Assembly: GCA_024275665.1 (NCBI GenBank)
Contig: JAJRYS010000018.1
Span: 5,442 to 69,441, forward strand
Length of the DNA stretch: 64,000 bases
Direction of reading: 5' to 3'
DNA from: an archaeon
Lineage (GTDB): Archaea > B1Sed10-29 > JAJRYS01
Shown here: positions 17,221 to 48,527 of the stretch, in pieces
How the letters are laid out: every line of letters starts with the position of its first letter
How positions within the stretch are numbered: position 1 is the first letter of the stretch
Notes under the pieces: model-generated
What the model saw: only the letters and a program-made list of their open reading frames with translations
What the model was told of the DNA's origin: nothing
The model's database searches: none
Translations under genes and position numbers: made by a program

Positions 17221-18042
17221 GTGGTATTTAAATCGTTGGTAGCCATGCAGCGTAAGAAAAAAGTTGTGAAAAAACGCAAGACAGCAACTGAAAAGAAAAA
17301 GAAAGAAAACAGTAATCCAAAACCTCTTCCGAGTGAAGAAGAAATTAAAAAAGCAATGCAACAAGCAATAATGAGAGAAGAGAAGATACAAGAGAATAGA
17401 ATAAGCACTGGTATTAAAAAACTTGATTATTACTTGTCAGGAGGGTATCCTTTTCCATCAGTAATCCTAGTAATAGGAAGGCCAGGAGTTGGCAAAACTC
17501 CTTTCGCAATAGCGTTCGCAGCTAAGGGAATTGAGAACGGCAATAACGTATTATACATTTGCTTAAACAACTTTCCTTCTGAAATAAAACAAATAGCTAA
17601 GAAAGTAGGATATTCGCTTGAAAAAGCAACACTAATAGATGCATACTCATGGATTATTGGAAAACAAGGAGGAGAGTACAGCATCTCTGCTTTGAACCCT
17701 ACTAAGATTCTTGAAATCTTAGAAGAGCAGTTGAAAAAGGGTAAAGTTGAAAACGTAATACTTGATTCACTTTCAACAATGTACTTATATCATGATGAAA
17801 AAACCATTCAAAGGTTTGTCCAAACATTTGTAGCAATGATAAAAGAATACGAAGCATGCGGCATTATAATAACAGAACTAGGGACTTGCTCAGAAGAAAT
17901 GAACGCAATGCTTGAATACTTGACTGACGGCACTGTGTTCATTGACAAAGGAAGGATAGTTATTGAAAAAATGGCAGGAGTTGAAGTAAAGAAAAGAGAA
18001 ATGCGTTTTGAAATAACAAAGAAAGGAATTGAAATAGAGTGA
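17221..18042 (+). CDS. KaiC-like/RecA-superfamily ATPase
   Basis: Walker A VIGRPGVGKTPFAIAFA, KaiC-like single domain; Lys-rich N-terminal 60 aa may be upstream of the true start. Confidence 0.65.
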   Translation: MVFKSLVAMQRKKKVVKKRKTATEKKKKENSNPKPLPSEEEIKKAMQQAIMREEKIQENRISTGIKKLDYYLSGGYPFPSVILVIGRPGVGKTPFAIAFAAKGIENGNNVLYICLNNFPSEIKQIAKKVGYSLEKATLIDAYSWIIGKQGGEYSISALNPTKILEILEEQLKKGKVENVILDSLSTMYLYHDEKTIQRFVQTFVAMIKEYEACGIIITELGTCSEEMNAMLEYLTDGTVFIDKGRIVIEKMAGVEVKKREMRFEITKKGIEIE

Positions 18043-18046
18043 GGTA

Positions 18047-18508
18047 ATGAAATTAAAGAAAACACTTCAATTAAAGAAGCCAAAAATTGTTGAAAAAATA
18101 GAAAAAAGCAAAAAGAAAGGAGCTTATTTCACGATAATAAAAAATGGAAAAAATATTTACTTGACACAATACGAAGCCAGAGTAATGGAAGAGATAATAA
18201 AAAAAGGAGGAAGAGCTGCTTCAATAGAAGAGATTGCTGATTCAATTAAAAAAAGACAAGGATGGGTTTCTGTAAAAATAATAAAAAGGACCATTGAAAA
18301 ATTAGAAAAAGCAGGCTACCTAAAAAAGACCAGTGAAAAAAATAAAGAAGTTGTGGTATCCATTAATTTTAACAATTCTTTGAAAGGAGAAAGAAGAAAG
18401 CTTTATGAAAAACTGTTGGAAGAACAAAAATTCCAGAAAGCAATGAAATTAAAATACGGCACTATTGAAGAAAAAAAGAGAATATTAAAAGAATACGGGC
18501 TGATTTGA
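18047..18508 (+). CDS. winged-helix DNA-binding protein
   Basis: MarR/TrmB-like wHTH segment (LTQYEARVMEEIIKKGGRAASIEEIADSI…LEKAGYL). Confidence 0.4.
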   Translation: MKLKKTLQLKKPKIVEKIEKSKKKGAYFTIIKNGKNIYLTQYEARVMEEIIKKGGRAASIEEIADSIKKRQGWVSVKIIKRTIEKLEKAGYLKKTSEKNKEVVVSINFNNSLKGERRKLYEKLLEEQKFQKAMKLKYGTIEEKKRILKEYGLI

Positions 18509-18545
18509 TAATAATTTAAAAAAGAAGAAGATTGTAAATAAACAC

Positions 18546-19757
18546 ATGAAAACTAAAATTATTTTGATAATAATTGCATTACTTAGTAATTCTCTTGCCT
18601 TAATAAGTATAGTTTCACCAATTCCTGACTACACTTATTTTTCAGGAGAAAACGTTGAGGTTCTCGGAAGCATTGGTTTTGAAAACTGCTCAGGAACAGC
18701 AGTACTCTTGGTTGACGGAGTGAAAAAAGAAGAAGCCTCATTCAAAAAAGGAATTTTTTACAAATTGGAAAAACTGTTTGAAAACGCCTCGCTTGAATTG
18801 AACGAAGGCGAGCACTATGTCACTATAACAACTGACTGTGGTGAAAAAGAAACCATTTACTTTAAAGTAAAAAACAAACTAAGCATTGTTTTCAGCACAA
18901 ATGGAGACAAGTTCATGACAGGAGACGTGTTGGAGGTATCTGCTTATGCTTTTAGAAAAGAAAAAATATCAAACATTACTGAGATAATAATAAACAATCA
19001 ATCCTTCATTGGCCACTCTTCAATAAAACTAGAAAAACCTGGAAAAACAAGTGTGTTAATAAGAGCAAAAGATGAATTAGGAAACAGTGCTGAAAAAACT
19101 CTTGACATTGAAGTGTTTAACGAACTAAAAATAGATGTAAGCGTTGGTAAAGAAGAACTGAAACCAAACGAAACCGCAAGCATAACAGTGCTGTGTTTTG
19201 ACGTGCTTGGAAATATGAGAAATTGTAATGCCAGTGCTTACTGGTTCTCTAAATGGGCTCCAATTGATTCCCTCATAATCCCTGAAAACGCTTCACCTGG
19301 AAACTATACAATAAAAATAATCACAAGCAACGGAAGCAACACAGGGGAAACAACAGTAAAAATAAAAGTATTGAGAATTCCTGTAATAAAAGACATCATA
19401 ATAAAAGATGAGTGGTTTGAAGTGATAAGCACTGACCAAAACGGCAATAGTTTCATGACAAAAGTTAATGTGTCTTTTTTTGACAATCAAGGAAGACTAG
19501 TTAAAGAGGAAAACATACTGACAAACAATAAGTACAAAATTAATTTACCTCCTGGGACTTATTCAATTGTAGTTAATACTGCTGGAAAGTCTTTTGAAAA
19601 ACAAGCATCATTAAAAACAAGGGAAAGCACTGCAACAGGAAACATAAGCGGATTAGTGGTTGCTAAGAAAAGAGCAACATTAATAGCAGGGCTTGTAATA
19701 ATTGCATTGACAATAATGGCAGTATTACTACAAAAACGAGATAAAATAAAGCGCTAA
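18546..19757 (+). CDS. secreted surface protein with C-terminal TM anchor
   Basis: N-terminal signal peptide, beta-rich repeats, C-terminal LIAGLVIIALTIMAVLL then basic tail. Confidence 0.45.
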   Translation: MKTKIILIIIALLSNSLALISIVSPIPDYTYFSGENVEVLGSIGFENCSGTAVLLVDGVKKEEASFKKGIFYKLEKLFENASLELNEGEHYVTITTDCGEKETIYFKVKNKLSIVFSTNGDKFMTGDVLEVSAYAFRKEKISNITEIIINNQSFIGHSSIKLEKPGKTSVLIRAKDELGNSAEKTLDIEVFNELKIDVSVGKEELKPNETASITVLCFDVLGNMRNCNASAYWFSKWAPIDSLIIPENASPGNYTIKIITSNGSNTGETTVKIKVLRIPVIKDIIIKDEWFEVISTDQNGNSFMTKVNVSFFDNQGRLVKEENILTNNKYKINLPPGTYSIVVNTAGKSFEKQASLKTRESTATGNISGLVVAKKRATLIAGLVIIALTIMAVLLQKRDKIKR

Positions 19758-19939
19758 AAAGCCTCAGTCCGCCTATCAATCATCATTCGCATGCCGCGGA
19801 AAAGCGTCTGATTGAGGATAATCATCATCGGCTGTTAATAATTATGAAAAATGTTGATTAAACAAACAAATGCTTTTAAATAAAATAAACTCAAACCAGT
19901 TTGAAAATTGATTTAATTATTAAAAACGAAAAAAAAGAT

Positions 19940-20526
19940 AATGAACAAAATAAGAATAAAAAAATTATCAAAAAAAAGAAGAGTACCTTCTTGAATTATT
20001 TCTAGGAGATGGGTATTTTTCAATAGATAAGAATAAGCATTACAAAACTTGTTTTTGTCTAAATCCAAAAAAAGACTTCTTGATAATGCTTAAAGTGGTA
20101 TTATTACTAAAAAAGATTGAGTTAAATTCTTATCTTATTAATAATAATGGATGTGTTGAGGTAAAAGTAAATTCAATACTATTTATGGATTATATGAAAG
20201 AAAGTTTGAAAAAATGGTGGGATGAACCGGAAAGTTATTTACTTGGAGTTATTAGTGGTCTTATTGATTCTGACGGAAATATTGGCAATGGTGAAATAGT
20301 AATAACAAATAAGAACAAAAGTATTTTAAAGAAAGTAAAAGAAATTATTAATAAGAAGAATATTCACACTAAGTTGTGGATAAAACAAAACAAAGGAAAA
20401 GAGGATAAGTGGAAGTTTAATATTTACAAATTGAGAATTGGAACTGCTTTAAAAAACCTTGATCATTGTTCTTTAAAGGTTAAGTTCTTGAATAGTGGGG
20501 ATTCCGCAGCGACTAACAGGCATTAA
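19940..20526 (+). CDS. LAGLIDADG homing endonuclease, double-motif, apparent frameshift in A8 run near 5' end
   Basis: ATG at 19940 gives MNKIRIKKLSKK then stop; the other frame, open from 19959, reads …EEYLLELFLGDGYFSIDKNKH… and continues into the listed ORF containing LGVISGLIDSDGNI: two LAGLIDADG motifs about 100 aa apart. Confidence 0.7.
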
Positions 20527-20647
20527 AAATGCTTGTTAGTTGTAAGGGTAGGGCAGCTTGGAGTGCCCGTCGGGCTCATATGCGTTCCGGTTCCAAAAGG
20601 AACGCGGAAACACCCGAAGGTCAGAGGTTCAAATCCTCTCCCCGCTA
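20508..20647 (+). tRNA. initiator tRNA-Met(CAT) with two putative introns (acceptor stem after pos 4, and 37/38)
   Basis: A1:U72, AGCG|…|GGG acceptor pairing with CCCCGCT, U8A9, D-stem GGGC/GCCC with A14 and G18G19, anticodon stem with three G:C (TCGGG/CCCGA), loop CTCATA, T-arm AGAGG-TTCAAAT-CCTCT, discriminator A. Confidence 0.6.
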
Positions 20648-20743
20648 TTTAACATAATTATAACTGCATTGTTAAGGGAAGATAGTAGAGAAAAAAACCA
20701 TAGGTATTTTAGTATTCTCTGCTGACAACTGTTTCTTGTCTTA

Positions 20744-21229
20744 TTATCTTCCAGAAATTTCATTTAATATTTTTTTCTTAACTTTTTTGTTAAGTTCATT
20801 AATATCAATTTTTTCAAAATCTTTCTTACTTAATTCTTTCCTTAGCTCTAAAATTACTTCATTTGTTGCATTTCTTATTATGCTTTTTATCTCTTTATCT
20901 ATCATTCTTTGATTATTTTGTTTTTTGATAGATTCAATTACACTCTCAATCTCCCATTCATATCTTTCTTTTAAGATATTACTTATTGTATCTTTTTCTA
21001 AATCTCTTATTCTTTTAATATTATTTTCTTCTAATCTTTTCCTCAGTTCTTCTGCCCTGCGTTGTGAGGGGGTCTTCTTAGGCTTGTTAATCTTTTTCAC
21101 TGCTTCTTCGTAAGCTTGCCTGCGTGGATCTGTTAATGGTAGTATTGCCCATTCCCTCTTAATTCCATTAGGTAATGGAGTAAGGCTTGTCTTTTTTTTC
21201 CTGTATTTTTTATGTGGTCTATACACCAT
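20744..21229 (-). CDS. hypothetical basic protein
   Basis: 161 aa K/R/E-rich ORF, no recognisable motif. Confidence 0.35.
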   Translation of the reverse strand: MVYRPHKKYRKKKTSLTPLPNGIKREWAILPLTDPRRQAYEEAVKKINKPKKTPSQRRAEELRKRLEENNIKRIRDLEKDTISNILKERYEWEIESVIESIKKQNNQRMIDKEIKSIIRNATNEVILELRKELSKKDFEKIDINELNKKVKKKILNEISGR

Positions 21230-21313
21230 GCTTTTTTTATGTTATACAATGTTTATAAAGAAAGGAGGCTCCCTTTGGTTCCAGTATTCAACGAGTTTTG
21301 ACGTTGGTTTTTG

Positions 21314-21973
21314 TTATTCGCTTATTTTTTTGATGAATTCTTCTGCTTTTTTAATACTTGGCTGAAAAGGAAAAGAATTAAAAAATTCTTGCACTGAATT
21401 GGTTTCTGTTACCACTTCCAATACTTTCTCAATCAACTCTTTTTCATCATTACTGAGATCAGAATCATAGAGAATAATTCTAACATCATCTCTTAGTACA
21501 GGACTTGAATAAGAATAAATCAAATTAAGAAGATTTAAAGAAAAATTTTCTATGTTCTTATCTTTTATTATTCTGTAGAATATTGCCACAGCATCAAGAT
21601 TTACCTCAGGGAATTTTGGGAGATTAAACATTAAAACATCATCACTTAAGTGCAAAAAATTTACATGATATAATTTTTTCAACTTTCTTGGTTTTTTCTT
21701 ACCTACTTTTGAATAATAATAAGACAAAAGAGTTCTTGCTTTGTTCCAAAAATTGTCTTTTGGAGAATATTCAAGAATTATGTTCTTTTCAACAAGTTCT
21801 CTTAGCTCTTTTTTTTCCAAAAATTTTACAACCTGCTCGCTTGGGGTTTTTCCATAAAATCCTTTTACATTCATTTTTAGCATTTCAACTATTGACTTTG
21901 GAGTCCTAGGAGCTGGAAACCTGCAAAATTCAATTATTTTCTTCCTTACTTCTTCCTTATCATAATTAGTCAT
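21314..21973 (-). CDS. hypothetical protein
   Basis: 219 aa ORF, codon usage consistent with neighbours. Confidence 0.35.
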   Translation of the reverse strand: MTNYDKEEVRKKIIEFCRFPAPRTPKSIVEMLKMNVKGFYGKTPSEQVVKFLEKKELRELVEKNIILEYSPKDNFWNKARTLLSYYYSKVGKKKPRKLKKLYHVNFLHLSDDVLMFNLPKFPEVNLDAVAIFYRIIKDKNIENFSLNLLNLIYSYSSPVLRDDVRIILYDSDLSNDEKELIEKVLEVVTETNSVQEFFNSFPFQPSIKKAEEFIKKISE

Positions 21974-22048
21974 GTTTTACAAAATAAGAAGTTTAAGTAT
22001 AAAAAAGTATTATAGTTATCTCTGGTTTTTTGTGAATATTAAAAATCT

Positions 22049-22291
22049 TTATTTTTGCACTAAAATCATGTCACTTATTGACTTCACTCTTCTGAACAGT
22101 ACGCTGTGTTTTTGAATTAGTTCTTTTGTATTTGAATCTATTCTTGTTAGTGGTTTTGTTAGTATTCTTACTGCTTCCCCTGTTTCCATATTTAGTATTA
22201 CGTCATTTACTTTTCCAATATACTTAGCGTCTGAAGTGTATATGTCCATTCCATATATTTTTGACAAGCTTACAGTCATCTGCGTCACCAT
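22049..22291 (-). CDS. PRC-barrel domain protein
   Basis: 80 aa; DAKYIGKVNDVILNMETGEAVRIL resembles PRC barrel, similar to paralog at 37599-37868. Confidence 0.45.
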   Translation of the reverse strand: MVTQMTVSLSKIYGMDIYTSDAKYIGKVNDVILNMETGEAVRILTKPLTRIDSNTKELIQKHSVLFRRVKSISDMILVQK

Positions 22292-22320
22292 TTAAGGTAA
22301 CGTGTTATTGGTTTAAAAGC

Positions 22321-22446
22321 TTATTCCTTATCTTTTATCAAGCTTACGAATATTTTTCTTTCAAGCTTGTAATCAGAACGCACGTGTCCTATTATTTCTT
22401 CAAGTTCTTTTACAGTCATTTCACCTATTTTCAAGTTTAAATTCAT
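22321..22446 (-). CDS. small ORF (41 aa) with strong Shine-Dalgarno
   Basis: GGAGGTG 7 nt upstream of ATG; MNLNLKIGEMTVKELEEIIGHVRSDYKLERKIFVSLIKDKE; below ORF-track size cut-off. Confidence 0.4.
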   Translation of the reverse strand: MNLNLKIGEMTVKELEEIIGHVRSDYKLERKIFVSLIKDKE

Positions 22447-22455
22447 CAAAACCAC

Positions 22456-22479
22456 CTCCGCATTTATCTAAATGCGGAG
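22456..22479 (-). terminator. 11-bp perfect hairpin between ATPase gene and small ORF
   Basis: CTCCGCATTTA TC TAAATGCGGAG. Confidence 0.4.
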
Positions 22480-22535
22480 CCAATGGGTAATGCTCATTGT
22501 GACTCCGCACGGCTTAACATGTTGTGAAATCACTC

Positions 22536-23795
22536 TCAGTCTGATGAGAGTATTTTTCTTACGTGAGGGGAGAGGGAGTAGATGTACCCTCTTCCCATCA
22601 TGTTTTCTCTTTCTTCTATCAAGGGATAAAGGTCTTTTATAGTGGGCCTGTTTTGTGGTTCGTTGTATTTTCCTTGCAGTCTTTTAAGCATGTGCCTCAC
22701 AGTATCATACTTGTCGTTTATTGATTTTGCTATTTCTACTGCTGTTTTAGGCTCTTCTTCAAACAAGAAAAGGAGTATTCTTCTTTGAAGAGGAGATATT
22801 GCTGTTAATAACTCGTGTTTTTCAAGATTGTAAGTTTGTTTTGGTACAAACTTGGGTGGTTCTCCTTCAACTAATTTTTCAAGGGTGCTTGTTTTTTCTT
22901 CAACTACCTCTATTGCTGGTTCTTCTTTTAACTCTTCTTTTATTGTTGAAAAACTCGGCTCATATATTGGTGTTGCTTCATCTCTTTTCATTTTAAAAAA
23001 TCTTTCAACATCTTCTTTTCTTATCTCATGCTTGTTGTTTTCAATAGCAAACTCTATCATGCGTGAGCAGTTTTCAATTATTTCTCTTGGAATATATTTT
23101 GAGTGTTCTGCTATTTTTTTCATAGCGTTTTCAGTAAATAAGTAATTGTTTGACTTCGCGAGCACTTCTATTCTTTTTTTAATCATGCCTATTGATTCTT
23201 TTTCTGTAAGTGGTCTTAGGCTTTCACATAATTCAAGCCTGTCAATTAAATATTCAGGTATCTTTTTATTTCCTTTTACTAATTCTGTTTTTCCAGCAAA
23301 TATTATTGAGAAGGAGGTTCCGCTTTCTGATAAATTTCTTAAGTATGAAAAAATGTGTTCATCTAATGCGTGAGCTTCGTCAATTATTAATAGTGTTTTT
23401 TTTCTTATTTGTTTGTTTATTTTTTCATAATCATTTTCATCTATTCTTATTAATCCTATTTTTTGAAGTAATTGGTTTCCACATAGCTCTTTTATTTTTT
23501 TTATTAAGTATGTTTTTTCAGGTGGTTCTTCAAATAAAATAACATTGTATTTGTTTTTGAAGTCTTCTGCTATTTTTTTTATCAGGGCTGTTTTTCCAAA
23601 TCCGTACTGCCCGTATATTACTGCGTAGTTTTTGTTCAGTTCTATGAATGAATAAACTTTACTTAGTATGTCTTCGAATCCTACGAATAATTCTGGCATA
23701 GTTACGTGAGTAAAAGGGTTTTTTACTTCCCATCCTTGTTTCTGCTGCCATTCTTCTATTTTTTTTATTTTTTCTTCAAAAAACATGTTTTTCAT
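22536..23795 (-). CDS. AAA+ ATPase with C-terminal winged helix (archaeal ATPase / AAA_22-like), not Orc1/Cdc6
   Basis: Walker A GQYGFGKTAL, Walker B LIIDEAHALD, C-terminal wHTH (LQRRILLFLFEEEPKTAVEIAKSIN…VRHMLKRL); lacks the Orc1 N-terminal LPxRE motif. Confidence 0.7.
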   Translation of the reverse strand: MKNMFFEEKIKKIEEWQQKQGWEVKNPFTHVTMPELFVGFEDILSKVYSFIELNKNYAVIYGQYGFGKTALIKKIAEDFKNKYNVILFEEPPEKTYLIKKIKELCGNQLLQKIGLIRIDENDYEKINKQIRKKTLLIIDEAHALDEHIFSYLRNLSESGTSFSIIFAGKTELVKGNKKIPEYLIDRLELCESLRPLTEKESIGMIKKRIEVLAKSNNYLFTENAMKKIAEHSKYIPREIIENCSRMIEFAIENNKHEIRKEDVERFFKMKRDEATPIYEPSFSTIKEELKEEPAIEVVEEKTSTLEKLVEGEPPKFVPKQTYNLEKHELLTAISPLQRRILLFLFEEEPKTAVEIAKSINDKYDTVRHMLKRLQGKYNEPQNRPTIKDLYPLIEERENMMGRGYIYSLSPHVRKILSSD

Positions 23796-23832
23796 AGTGT
23801 TTGTAATATTCTCTATTCTACTATATAAAAGT

Positions 23833-23976
23833 AACGAGTATTTCCGAGTAATTTATACTCGTTTTACTCGTTAATACTCGTTTAATTACTCGGTATTACT
23901 CGGTGATTTTACAATAATTACTCGTTTTTACCCGTTAGTTTTACTCGTTAATACCCGTTGAATTACTCGTTTACTC
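23833..23976. repeat. iteron array: about 13 copies of TACTCGTT (variants TACTCGG, TACCCGTT), spaced 9-12 bp, first two copies inverted
   Basis: Read directly: AACGAGTA…CGAGTAA…TACTCGTTT TACTCGTTAA TACTCGTTTAAT TACTCGG… TACCCGTT… TACTCGTT TACTC. Confidence 0.75.
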
Positions 23977-24147
23977 TTTTGAATTTAGACAGTCAGGTTC
24001 AGAGCTAACATAATACAAGAAGTAAGCCCCCCCTCTATACTGTTTTTGAAAAATAATTTTTGTTATTGTTTGAAAAATAGCGTTCCTTGTATTGGTTTTT
24101 TACTTATGTGAACAGCCTTTTTTCCTTAAATGCGTCACTGTTTTTTT

Positions 24148-48357: not shown

Positions 48358-48527
48358 CGCCTCGGGCAGGATTTTCTCACCGTCCAGTTGGCTTTTTTCC
48401 GCTGTGAAGCGGAAACCAGGCCACTTCAGCTTCAGCTGAATGTGGTCTCAGCCAGCCGGATACGGATGTTCGAACCTGCGGTCTCACGGTTAACAGCCGT
48501 GCGCTTTAGCCACTAAGCTACCGAGGC
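48358..48527 (-). tRNA. tRNA-Asn(GTT) with about 100-nt intron in T-loop (59/60)
   Basis: Minus strand: GCCTCGG TA GCTT AGTGGCTA AAGC G CACGG CTGTTAA CCGTG AGAC CGCAGG TTCGAA [insert] T CCTGC CCGAGGC G. Confidence 0.6.

What the first reader, a model, noticed from the sequence alone, without database searches (positions are those of the whole stretch)
19940..20526. Frameshifted LAGLIDADG homing endonuclease gene whose 3' end overlaps the 5' exon and first intron of tRNAi-Met
Both LAGLIDADG motifs (LFLGDGYF and LIDSDGNI) are in one frame. The only ATG (19940) is in a different frame and meets a stop after 17 codons, right after an A8 homopolymer (tcAAAAAAAAgaag). The gene is either a recent pseudogene, uses programmed frameshifting, or the assembly has a homopolymer error.

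The ORF's last codons run across the AGCG 5' exon and into the intron hairpin. A free-standing homing endonuclease abutting an intron-containing tRNA suggests the intron or gene arrived by homing. It could also mean the true intron is long and contains the endonuclease.
Basis: seen in the sequence. Interest (0 to 1): 0.65.

Follow-up and report, generated by a model that had tools for sequence, protein, structure and literature searches.

The report
Decayed homing endonuclease beside initiator tRNA
A broken copy of a selfish DNA-cutting enzyme gene sits directly against the start of the cell's initiator tRNA gene, which is itself split by two small introns. The same pairing recurs in at least 16 distinct loci, including genomes assigned to three archaeal groups, which links homing endonucleases to the odd introns found at the 5' end of archaeal tRNA genes.

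Summary
A two-motif LAGLIDADG open frame (19960-20526) is separated from its only ATG (19941) by a +1 frame offset at an A8 run (19970-19977). A7 or A10 would give an intact 194- or 195-residue protein whose closest structural match is I-DmoI. Its last codons cross the leader, the 4-nt 5' exon (AGCG, 20508-20511) and the first intron (20512-20545) of a tRNAiMet gene. That gene needs two bulge-helix-bulge (BHB) splices to become a perfect tRNA-Met(CAT).

The arrangement is not an accident of this locus. All 15 other distinct loci of this endonuclease family that I could read lie against a tRNAiMet gene. In 14 of 15 the tRNA carries a short BHB intron within its first 16 nt (after nt 4, 7, 10, 13 or in the D-loop). 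Six carry an intron-less tRNA 5' fragment at the endonuclease start. Eleven of the 15 same-strand upstream loci, the window included, carry a pseudo-acceptor strand in the leader. Three copies, the window's included, are degraded.

The best reading is a decaying homing endonuclease that travels with a tRNA intron interrupting its own target. The long-intron model is not supported for this window. Whether the frameshift is real cannot be settled without reads, but 15 other A/T runs of 8 or more in the window leave their ORFs intact.

The parts
19941..19977 (+). Start codon and first 12 codons (MNKIRIKKLSKK) of the endonuclease, in the frame that is lost after the A-run
   Evidence: Translation. 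The A7 reconstruction aligns with the homolog N-termini.
19970..19977 (+). A8 homopolymer, site of the +1 frame offset
   Evidence: A7 gives an intact 194 aa and A10 gives 195 aa. Fifteen other A/T runs of 8 or more in the window lie in intact ORFs.
19960..20526 (+). Body of the LAGLIDADG endonuclease reading frame (188 codons plus TAA), without a start codon
   Evidence: Pfam LAGLIDADG_3 E=1.6e-11. AF2 model pLDDT 75.8 with alpha-beta-beta-alpha-beta-beta-alpha twice. Best PDB match is I-DmoI, E=1.4e-9, TM 0.64-0.66.
19996..20019 (+). LAGLIDADG motif 1 (LFLGDGYF); the GDG Asp is invariant in the family
20260..20283 (+). LAGLIDADG motif 2 (LIDSDGNI); the SDG Asp/Glu position is conserved
20448..20477 (+). 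Two TTTAAA boxes inside the 3' end of the ORF (20448-20453, 20472-20477), candidate TATA boxes for the tRNA transcript
   Evidence: In relatives the TTTAAA/G that encodes the conserved F-K-(Y) lies 29-46 nt upstream of the pseudo-acceptor, or 34 nt upstream of tRNA nt 1 where there is no leader (L021). This is inference, not tested.
20494..20500 (+). Pseudo-acceptor strand AGTGGGG in the leader, complementary (one G.U) to the tRNA 3' acceptor strand CCCCGCT
   Evidence: The MFE fold pairs 20490-20501 with 20639-20650. An equivalent NGCGGGG-like copy lies 14-30 nt upstream of nt 1 in 10 of the 14 related same-strand upstream loci.
20508..20511 (+). tRNAiMet exon 1 (AGCG, nt 1-4)
20512..20545 (+). 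Intron 1, 34 nt, position 4/5, BHB: H = GCAG/TTGT, bulges CG|a and aa|G, inner helix ctaacaggcat/atgcttgttag. Contains the ORF's stop codon in its loop
   Evidence: Six related loci have the same 4/5 intron with H = ATAG/CTAT.
20546..20580 (+). tRNAiMet exon 2 (nt 5-37: end of the acceptor strand, D arm, anticodon CAT)
20581..20611 (+). Intron 2, 31 nt, canonical position 37/38, 8-bp hairpin. The central helix of the BHB has only 2 of 4 pairs (relaxed motif)
   Evidence: ARAGORN finds this intron once intron 1 is removed.
20612..20647 (+). tRNAiMet exon 3 (nt 38-73, T arm, acceptor 3' strand, discriminator A)
   Evidence: The spliced product has A1:U72 and three G-C pairs at the base of the anticodon stem.

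Best explanation
The window holds a degenerating copy of an I-DmoI-like, single-chain LAGLIDADG homing endonuclease gene. It belongs to a family that lives specifically at archaeal initiator-tRNA genes.

Shown:
- The gene abuts the tRNAiMet gene on the same strand.
- The tRNA is made from three exons through two BHB introns.
- The first intron splits the acceptor strand after nt 4.
- The same family and tRNA pairing, with a BHB intron somewhere in tRNA nt 4-16, recurs in distinct loci including MAGs labelled Nanoarchaeota/Nanoarchaeia, Aenigmarchaeota and Hadarchaeota.
- Several relatives keep an intron-less copy of tRNA nt 1-12 at the endonuclease start.

Inferred:
- The intact enzyme cuts intron-less tRNAiMet genes in their 5' region.
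- Repair from an endonuclease-bearing allele copies the endonuclease gene together with the intron-bearing 5' part of the tRNA.
- The intron, removed harmlessly by the host splicing endonuclease, interrupts the recognition sequence and so protects the carrier. This is collaborative homing of a free-standing endonuclease and an ORF-less intron.
- The pre-tRNA is transcribed from a TATA box lying in the last codons of the endonuclease ORF. Its leader carries a surrogate acceptor strand and, in relatives, a strand that pairs with exon 2 to build the outer BHB helix.
- In this copy a one-base gain in an A-run has cut the start codon off from the body, so the enzyme is no longer made. This is the expected late stage of a homing-endonuclease life cycle, and the tRNA gene and its introns remain.
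For: Protein:
- Pfam LAGLIDADG_3.
- Model with two alpha-beta-beta-alpha-beta-beta(-alpha) halves, best PDB match I-DmoI.
- The 22 columns invariant across the seven aligned sequences, including both motif acidic positions, are by definition unchanged in the window copy.
- The last 21 residues, which overlap the tRNA, are predicted disordered.

tRNA:
- The spliced product is a perfect tRNA-Met(CAT).

Linkage:
- 14 distinct loci have the endonuclease directly 5' of tRNAiMet on the same strand: L001, L003, L004, L006, L007, L008, L009, L011, L012, L021, L022, L023, L024, L026.
- L010 has the two genes converging, and L047 has the endonuclease directly 3' of the tRNA.
- Endonuclease identities are only 26-59%, so the pairing is old.

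Introns:
- BHB with 3-4 bp in helix H in 13 of 14 loci, at 4/5, 7/8, 10/11 and 13/14.
- L001 versus L003 show a compensatory change in the outer helix, A-T/T-A against A-T/C-G.
- L010 and L047 have D-loop introns. Only L009 has no 5' intron, and its acceptor and D-stem sequence differs.

Displaced 5' fragment:
- GCGGGGTRG sits at the endonuclease start in L004, L006, L009, L011, L022 and L026.
- In L009 it differs from the resident tRNA (AGCAGAG), so it travels with the endonuclease.

Decay:
- L012 is frameshifted and L026 has an internal deletion.

Precedents:
- Collaborative homing (PMC3984707).
- A tRNA 5' fragment, a mobile element and a tRNA with an extra intron, in that order (PMC3293823).
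Against: - No cleavage, splicing or transcription data exist. The target site is inferred only from where the introns and the displaced fragment end.
- No endonuclease-free allele of the same locus was found, so mobility is not directly shown. The search through the KaiC neighbour failed because synteny ends there.
- The family is deeply diverged (26-59% identity) and mostly intact. That could also mean a retained host function rather than recurrent homing.
- Intron position does not track the endonuclease tree cleanly.
- The window has no recognisable displaced 5' fragment. Its outer BHB helix is weak (2 bp) and intron 2 has a relaxed BHB.
- The frameshift could be an assembly error.
Confidence: 0.6

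Rival explanations
1. The frameshift is an assembly or sequencing error at the A8 homopolymer. The true sequence is A7 and the endonuclease is intact and active. Everything else in the best explanation stays the same.
For: - A7 gives a full-length protein whose N-terminus aligns with homologs.
- All family-invariant residues are intact, with no other stop or shift in 188 codons.
- The source is a 76-kb metagenome-type contig.
Against: - Fifteen other A/T runs of 8-9 nt in the same window lie inside intact ORFs of 170-644 aa, four of them in one 419-aa ORF. The assembly is therefore not prone to homopolymer frameshifts.
- Two of the 15 other distinct loci of the family are independently degraded, so decay is common in this family.
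Confidence: 0.25
2. The offset is bridged during expression. Either transcriptional slippage on the A8 run (loss of one A or gain of two) or +1 ribosomal frameshifting produces a low level of full-length endonuclease.
For: - The shift lies exactly in an A8 run, and both A7 and A10 restore the frame.
- Low expression would suit a toxic nuclease.
Against: - No homolog has a frameshift or a conserved slippery run at this position. All intact relatives read straight through.
- L012's shift is at a different place.
- A -1 shift leads to a stop.
- No stimulatory structure was looked for or seen.
Confidence: 0.07
3. Long-intron model. The real 5' exon lies upstream of the endonuclease gene (for example AGCG at 19803-19806). 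The whole 0.7-kb stretch, endonuclease included, is one BHB intron, as in archaeal rRNA introns.
For: - The nearest structural relative, I-DmoI, and a sequence relative (L027, inside a 16S rRNA gene) are intron-encoded.
- More distant relatives L025 and L042 do sit inside 651- and 724-nt BHB introns of tRNA-Gln genes.
- Six relatives keep tRNA nt 1-12 at the endonuclease start, and the fragment is intact (AGCGGGGTGGAG) in L011.
Against: - In the window the proximal AGCG has a contiguous BHB (H 4/4, inner helix 8/8).
- The site at 19803 is followed by TCTGATT, not tRNA sequence. It lies 138 nt before the ATG, and AGCG occurs 115 times in the window.
- Six other loci conserve the proximal ATAGCG|a junction.
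- In most relatives the distal fragment has A1 destroyed (A-T-GCGGGG). In L009 it does not match the resident tRNA.
Confidence: 0.04
4. The protein is no longer, or never was, a selfish homing enzyme. It is a domesticated DNA- or RNA-binding LAGLIDADG protein serving the initiator-tRNA locus, or cargo left by an integrase-type element that integrated into the tRNA gene.
For: - The association is ancient and mostly intact across deep divergence.
- The order of tRNA 5' fragment, ORF on the same strand, then tRNA with an extra intron is exactly what integrase-mediated insertion produced in Caldiarchaeum (PMC3293823).
- LAGLIDADG folds have been recruited to other roles; WhiA appears among the fold matches.
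Against: - Both catalytic acidic positions are conserved across the family.
- No integrase or other element genes lie between the repeats. The insert is just the ~0.6-kb endonuclease gene.
- Three independent degraded copies, with the tRNA retained, argue that the protein is dispensable to the host.
Confidence: 0.1

Closest known systems
I-DmoI and other archaeal intron-encoded single-chain LAGLIDADG endonucleases (rRNA BHB introns)
   Same: - About 190 aa, two LAGLIDADG motifs in one chain, best structural match E=1.4e-9.
- Archaeal host, and an association with a BHB intron in a stable-RNA gene.
- A sequence relative (L027) lies inside a 16S rRNA gene.
   Different: - Here the gene is not inside the intron. 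It lies upstream of, and overlaps, the leader, exon 1 and intron 1 of a tRNA gene.
- The intron is only 17-34 nt and has no ORF.
- The host gene is tRNAiMet, not rRNA.
- Sequence identity to I-DmoI is about 20%.
Collaborative homing: a free-standing endonuclease plus an ORF-less intron at its target site (phage cases reviewed in PMC3984707, and T4 mobE trans-homing, PMC2790892)
   Same: - A free-standing endonuclease gene lies next to a gene whose intron sits where the enzyme would be expected to cut.
- The intron would give immunity and would be co-converted.
   Different: - The known cases are bacteriophage protein-coding genes with self-splicing group I introns and HNH or GIY-YIG type enzymes.
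- Here the host is an archaeal chromosome, the intron is a protein-spliced BHB intron in a tRNA, and the enzyme is a LAGLIDADG.
- The target site here is inferred, not measured.
tRNA gene disruption by a mobile element in Caldiarchaeum subterraneum (Sugahara et al. 2012, PMC3293823)
   Same: [quoted passage not shown]
- The insert's ORF lies on the same strand, immediately upstream of the reconstituted tRNA.
- The reconstituted tRNA has gained an intron near the junction.
   Different: - That insert is 1.8 kb, encodes a recombinase and is thought to use site-specific integration.
- It is a single case in tRNA-Thr.
- Here the insert is only a LAGLIDADG gene, and the pattern recurs across distinct loci, including MAGs labelled as three different archaeal groups, always at tRNAiMet.
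[quoted passage not shown] 42 in PMC4496867)
   Same: A homing endonuclease specialised on the initiator tRNA gene.
   Different: [quoted passage not shown]
- Rfam finds no group I intron in the window.

Membership tests
LAGLIDADG homing endonuclease (single-chain, I-DmoI type) | Two LAGLIDADG motifs in one polypeptide, each ending in a conserved acidic residue | tested here: met
   LFLGDGYF and LIDSDGNI in one frame. The GDG Asp and the S[D/E]G acidic position are conserved in all 7 aligned sequences.
LAGLIDADG homing endonuclease (single-chain, I-DmoI type) | Profile match to a curated LAGLIDADG family above threshold | tested here: met
   PF14528 scores 44.7 bits against a cutoff of 22.5, E=1.6e-11. 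PF05204 falls just below its cutoff.
LAGLIDADG homing endonuclease (single-chain, I-DmoI type) | Pseudo-dimeric alpha-beta-beta-alpha-beta-beta-alpha fold | tested here: met
   AF2 model with pLDDT 75.8 and secondary-structure order H-E-E-H-E-E-H / H-E-H-E-E. Top 34 PDB matches are I-DmoI. The model rests on a 7-sequence alignment, so confidence is moderate.
LAGLIDADG homing endonuclease (single-chain, I-DmoI type) | Intact, translatable gene | tested here: not met
   The start codon is out of frame with the body, and the motif frame has no alternative start. The window copy is a pseudogene as assembled.
LAGLIDADG homing endonuclease (single-chain, I-DmoI type) | Site-specific double-strand cleavage of an endonuclease-free allele, and biased inheritance | not testable with these tools
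   No biochemical or population data. The search for an empty site failed.
Archaeal BHB (bulge-helix-bulge) intron | Two 3-nt bulges on opposite strands separated by a 4-bp helix, with the splice sites in the bulges and flanking helices | tested here: met
   Intron 1 has H = GCAG/TTGT (2 Watson-Crick plus 2 G.U pairs), bulges CG|a and aa|G, an inner helix of 8/8 and a weak outer helix. The same geometry is seen in 13 related loci. Intron 2 is relaxed, with 2 of 4 pairs in H.
Archaeal BHB (bulge-helix-bulge) intron | Removal yields a functional RNA | tested here: met
   The in-silico spliced product is a canonical cloverleaf tRNA-Met(CAT). Actual splicing was not observed.
Archaeal BHB (bulge-helix-bulge) intron | Host encodes a splicing endonuclease able to cut non-canonical positions (alpha2beta2 or epsilon2 type) | not tested
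   EndA was not looked for in the window. A second tRNA, Asn, with a ~97-nt T-loop intervening sequence suggests the host handles non-canonical introns.
Archaeal initiator tRNA (tRNAiMet) | CAU anticodon, A1:U72, three consecutive G-C pairs closing the anticodon stem | tested here: met
   Spliced sequence AGCGGGG...GGGCTCATAACCC...CCCCGCTA. The same features are present in all linked tRNAs.
Group I intron with homing endonuclease | Group I ribozyme core | tested here: not met
   No Rfam group I hit in the window at gathering threshold. The 13 family loci searched at E<=1 returned only tRNA matches and one weak snoRNA-like match.
Integrase-type element integrated in a tRNA gene | Integrase or recombinase gene and att-type direct repeats of the tRNA end | tested here: not met
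   Direct repeats of tRNA nt 1-12 exist in six relatives. However, the only gene between the repeats is the LAGLIDADG ORF, with no integrase. The window shows no such repeat.

The most novel reading that the evidence does not exclude
This family is a previously undescribed kind of archaeal mobile unit, made of three things together.

- A LAGLIDADG endonuclease gene lodged in the 5' end of the single-copy initiator-tRNA gene. In some members it is expressed from the captured tRNA promoter and the displaced tRNA nt 1-12, even using A-T-GCGGGG as its start codon.
- A short BHB intron that splits the enzyme's own target in the replacement 5' exon.
- A leader that supplies a surrogate acceptor strand and the outer BHB helix.

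If this is right, homing endonucleases are one source of the unexplained non-canonical introns in the acceptor and D regions of archaeal tRNAs. It would also make intron-as-immunity (Randau and Soll's protection idea) directly testable.
Probability: 0.4. Interest if true: 0.8.

Novelty: new variant of a known kind. Interest (0 to 1): 0.66.

Why it matters
How archaeal tRNA genes acquire introns at non-canonical positions, and why, is a long-standing open question. Current ideas are intron transposition and protection against integrating elements. In the literature I could search, homing endonucleases are tied to archaeal rRNA introns but not to tRNA genes.

This locus and its relatives give a concrete, repeatable case. 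A defined endonuclease family is always next to one defined tRNA gene, and that tRNA almost always carries a short intron in the stretch the enzyme would be expected to recognise. Target, immunity and co-mobility can therefore be tested with a few cloned proteins and synthetic tRNA genes.

There is also a practical consequence. Such tRNAiMet genes are missed by standard tRNA finders. The endonuclease ORFs are annotated as truncated, or as running on through the tRNA.

Tried and rejected
- ARAGORN with default settings finds no tRNA in the window. The gene was resolved by hand and then checked by splicing in silico.
- Alternative exon 1 = AGTGGGG (20494-20500) with a 48-nt intron at 7/8. Rejected because no BHB can be drawn, it would put a G.U at 3:70, and AGCG plus GGG gives the consensus initiator stem. 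I keep this sequence as a leader pseudo-acceptor.
- Long intron from AGCG at 19803. Rejected (see rival explanations).
- Displaced 5' fragment in the window. The stretch AACGAAAAAAAAGATAATG (19923-19943) can be lined up with L011's AGCGGGGTGGAGAAATAATG only by assuming many G-to-A changes in an A-rich stretch. I do not claim it.
- Empty-site search. The KaiC-like neighbour has a 60% homolog on a 28-kb contig, but synteny stops right after KaiC. The contig look-up for the window's own protein found nothing, and the cluster look-up gave no name or accession.
- A wider claim that distant LAGLIDADG relatives sit next to other tRNAs. The ARAGORN -i calls in L019, L033, L035, L037 and L041 were not supported by Rfam, so I dropped it.
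- L021's BHB is ambiguous. Helix H has 2-3 bp depending on the register.
- Intron class against the endonuclease tree. Close relatives share intron position, but deeper branches mix classes. This neither proves nor refutes co-inheritance.
- The sequence search against solved structures gave nothing significant. Only the fold search did.
Full report
**1. Observation**

The region reads as the first-stage reader described, with small coordinate corrections.

- An ATG at 19941 opens a 17-codon frame, MNKIRIKKLSKKRRVPS*.
- The next frame is open from 19960 to a TAA at 20524-20526. It contains LFLGDGYF (19996-20019) and LIDSDGNI (20260-20283).
- That frame has no ATG, GTG or TTG before the first motif.
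- The two frames meet in an A8 run at 19970-19977. Removing one A, or adding two, gives one continuous ORF of 194 or 195 aa.
- Pfam LAGLIDADG_3 matches at E=1.6e-11.
- An AlphaFold model built on a 7-sequence alignment (pLDDT 75.8) has the double alpha-beta-beta-alpha-beta-beta topology. Its best PDB matches are 34 chains of I-DmoI (E down to 1.4e-9, TM about 0.65), followed by PI-PfuI, I-Tsp061I and others.
- The last 21 residues are predicted disordered. These are the codons that overlap the tRNA gene.

**2. The tRNA gene**

- Rfam matches 20546-20642 to tRNA model positions 5-66 only. ARAGORN finds nothing in the raw DNA.
- Joining AGCG (20508-20511), 20546-20580 and 20612-20647 gives a 75-nt tRNA-Met(CAT) that ARAGORN draws as a perfect cloverleaf. 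It has A1:U72 and three G-C pairs closing the anticodon stem, which makes it an archaeal initiator.
- Intron 1 (34 nt, position 4/5) has a full BHB core. The 4-bp helix is GCAG/TTGT, the bulges are CG|a and aa|G, and an 11-bp inner hairpin abuts it directly.
- Intron 2 (31 nt, position 37/38) has an 8-bp hairpin but only 2 of 4 pairs in the central helix.
- The endonuclease ORF's stop codon lies in the loop of the intron-1 hairpin.

**3. The pairing is conserved**

Three searches supplied relatives. The word-indexed protein search gave six, at 31-42% identity. Pattern scans of genome and metagenome contigs gave more. An exhaustive profile search found 42 clusters at E<=1e-30 among 1.84 billion representatives.

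Every family locus whose DNA I could read has a tRNAiMet gene against the endonuclease gene.

| Arrangement | Loci |
|---|---|
| Same strand, endonuclease directly upstream (14 distinct loci) | L001=L020, L003, L004, L006=L005, L007, L008, L009, L011, L012, L021, L022, L023, L024, L026 |
| Converging | L010 |
| Endonuclease directly downstream | L047 |

- Record titles place L009 and L010 in Nanoarchaeia/Nanoarchaeota, L011 in Aenigmarchaeota and L012 in Hadarchaeota.
- Flanking genes differ between loci: RNase HII, PmbA/TldD, PurS.
- Many gene calls run on through the tRNA. Their C-terminal tails spell it out...AHNP is the anticodon loop, HHSE or IAS is CATAGCGA, and SGVE is AGCGGGGTAGAG. Several N-termini read MRG, from ATGCGGGG.
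- Endonuclease identities among loci are 26-59%, so the association is old.

**4. Architecture**

(a) In 14 of the 15 distinct related loci whose tRNA 5' region could be read, the tRNA has a short BHB intron within its first ~16 nt.

| Intron position | Loci |
|---|---|
| 4/5 | window, L001, L003, L007, L008, L024, L026 |
| 7/8 | L004, L011 |
| 10/11 | L006, L012, L022 |
| 13/14 | L021, L023 |
| D-loop | L010, L047 |
| none | L009 |

- L009 has a different acceptor and D sequence, AGCAGAG...
- The BHB table shows 3-4 pairs in the central helix in 13 of 14 loci, and mostly good inner helices.
- In L001, L003 and L008 the leader is almost the reverse complement of exon 2 nt 2-12. L001 and L003 differ by a compensatory pair in this outer helix.

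(b) Six loci carry an intron-less copy of tRNA nt 2-12 (GCGGGGTRG) right at the endonuclease start.

- In four of them (L004, L006, L022, L026) it reads A-T-GCGGGG, which supplies the called start codon. L009 has the same motif about 45 nt upstream of its start.
- In L011 it is an intact AGCGGGGTGGAG, 5 nt before the ATG and about 25-32 nt after a TTTATAAA box.
- In L009 this fragment (GCGGGGTGGA) does not match the resident tRNA, so it belongs to the endonuclease unit.

(c) Eleven loci, including the window (AGTGGGG, 20494-20500), have a further acceptor-like heptamer 14-30 nt upstream of nt 1.

- In the window the MFE fold pairs it, with flanks, to the tRNA 3' end.
- It is conserved although it lies in the otherwise variable, disordered tail of the ORF. 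In L026 it lies outside the remaining ORF. That argues for a constraint at the nucleic-acid level.

(d) The TTTAAA/G that encodes the conserved F-K-(Y) near the end of the protein lies 29-46 nt upstream of that heptamer. In L021, which has no leader, it lies 34 nt upstream of nt 1. This geometry fits a TATA box for the tRNA transcript. It is inference only.

**5. Is the frameshift real?**

- Homolog alignment shows that the motif frame, with an N-terminus like the A7 reconstruction, is ancestral.
- No relative has a shift or a conserved slippery run at this position, so programmed recoding has no comparative support.
- The window contains 18 A/T runs of 8 or more. Apart from this one and one intergenic run, all 15 lie inside intact ORFs of 170-644 aa, four of them in a single 419-aa ORF. 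Systematic homopolymer error is therefore unlikely.
- Two other family members are independently degraded. L012 has a frameshift between the motifs, and L026 has lost residues ~36-89.
- I therefore favour a real, recent inactivation, since everything else in the ORF is intact. Only reads can settle it.

**6. Long-intron alternative**

- For the window it fails. The proximal exon 1 has a contiguous BHB that six relatives share as ATAGCG|a...CTATaa|GGG.
- The AGCG at 19803 has no tRNA sequence after it. The tetramer occurs 115 times in 64 kb.
- The idea is not absurd for the wider clade. Two more distant relatives (L025, L042) lie antisense inside 651- and 724-nt BHB introns at 37/38 of tRNA-Gln(UUG) genes. 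L027 lies in a 16S rRNA gene.
- The displaced nt 1-12 fragment in six relatives shows that the endonuclease gene was at some point inserted into the tRNA gene rather than merely beside it.

**7. Mechanism**

Shown: the anatomy and its conservation.

Inferred:
- The intact enzyme cuts intron-less tRNAiMet genes in the region where the introns cluster and where the displaced fragment ends (nt ~4-16).
- Repair from a carrier allele copies the endonuclease gene and the intron-bearing 5' part.
- The intron, removed by the host splicing endonuclease, breaks the recognition site and protects the carrier.
- The tRNA is transcribed from a promoter inside the end of the ORF.
- The leader helps build the BHB.
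- After fixation the endonuclease decays, as in the window, while the intron stays.

This corresponds to collaborative homing as described for phage free-standing endonucleases and ORF-less group I introns (PMC3984707). It also corresponds to the fragment, element and intron-containing tRNA arrangement seen once in Caldiarchaeum with a recombinase element (PMC3293823). And it fits the proposal that introns protect tRNA genes from mobile elements (Randau and Soll, as cited in PMC4090602).

**8. Novelty**

- Full-text searches for LAGLIDADG or homing endonucleases together with archaeal tRNA genes or introns returned only rRNA-intron, group I intron and organelle work.
- A 2014 review of tRNA introns never uses the word 'homing'. 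A 2015 paper ascribes endonuclease genes to rRNA introns.
- The library is incomplete, so prior description cannot be excluded.
- I classify the finding as a new variant of a known kind: a LAGLIDADG homing endonuclease in a new niche and architecture. The window's copy is a decayed member.

**9. Limits**

- There are no expression, splicing or cleavage data.
- No empty site was found.
- The organism of the window was not identified. It is an archaeal-type contig at 30-44% GC, and its protein look-ups returned no name or record.
- The endonuclease tree is a simple distance tree.

Noticed in passing
L025:804-1533 (- strand) and L042:85-887 (- strand): Two tRNA-Gln(UUG) genes are split at 37/38 by 651- and 724-nt intervening sequences, each closed by an 18-bp helix and a BHB motif. 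A LAGLIDADG ORF (26-34% identical to the window's) lies antisense inside each intron. I did not find protein-coding archaeal tRNA introns in the literature searched.
   Followed up: partly
window 48358-48527 (- strand): tRNA-Asn(GTT) is interrupted in the T-loop (about 59/60) by a ~97-nt, highly structured intervening sequence (about 48371-48467). Rfam sees only model positions 8-63 and ARAGORN misses the gene. The spliced construct is accepted as tRNA-Asn.
   Followed up: partly
window 18000-24000: GC drops to 0.30-0.32, against 0.35-0.44 on both sides. The stretch holds a surface-protein-like gene, the endonuclease, the tRNA, a DUF5364-like gene, an unknown 219-aa gene and an AAA_22 ATPase. 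In a 60%-identical relative (L045), synteny with the window ends exactly at the KaiC-like gene (18042). This may be an island integrated at, or brought with, the tRNA.
   Followed up: no
L047:516-1313: The endonuclease lies directly downstream of a tRNAiMet that has a D-loop intron. There is no in-frame ATG after the tRNA, and the called ORF starts upstream and reads through the whole tRNA gene (MVSGVGQRYRF...RRAHNPEVGGSNPPSAT...).
   Followed up: no
L010:3001-3690: The endonuclease and a tRNAiMet with a D-loop intron converge, 3' end to 3' end. The pairing survives a change of orientation.
   Followed up: no
L011:3540-3600; L004:3540-3600: Up to three tandem acceptor-like copies precede the tRNA body. 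L011 has AGCGGGG-caatgctt-AGCGGGG|intron. L004 has AGCGGGTtcac-AGCGGActgcac-AGCGGGG|intron. This suggests repeated replacement of the 5' exon.
   Followed up: no
L027:1-1394: A 30%-identical relative of the endonuclease lies within an archaeal 16S rRNA gene. This is the classical niche for this enzyme type.
   Followed up: no
L023:2504-2760; L026:824-1000; L006:675-790; L012:3565-3700; L022:2498-2682: The endonuclease-linked tRNAiMet genes often carry additional introns (37/38, variable region, T-loop), up to four in L023. These loci are among the most fragmented tRNA genes seen here.
   Followed up: no
window 19923-19943: The A-rich stretch AACGAAAAAAAAGATAATG just before and including the ATG can be aligned to L011's AGCGGGGTGGAGAAATAATG if many G-to-A changes are allowed. 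It may be a decayed displaced tRNA 5' fragment, but this is not demonstrable.
   Followed up: partly
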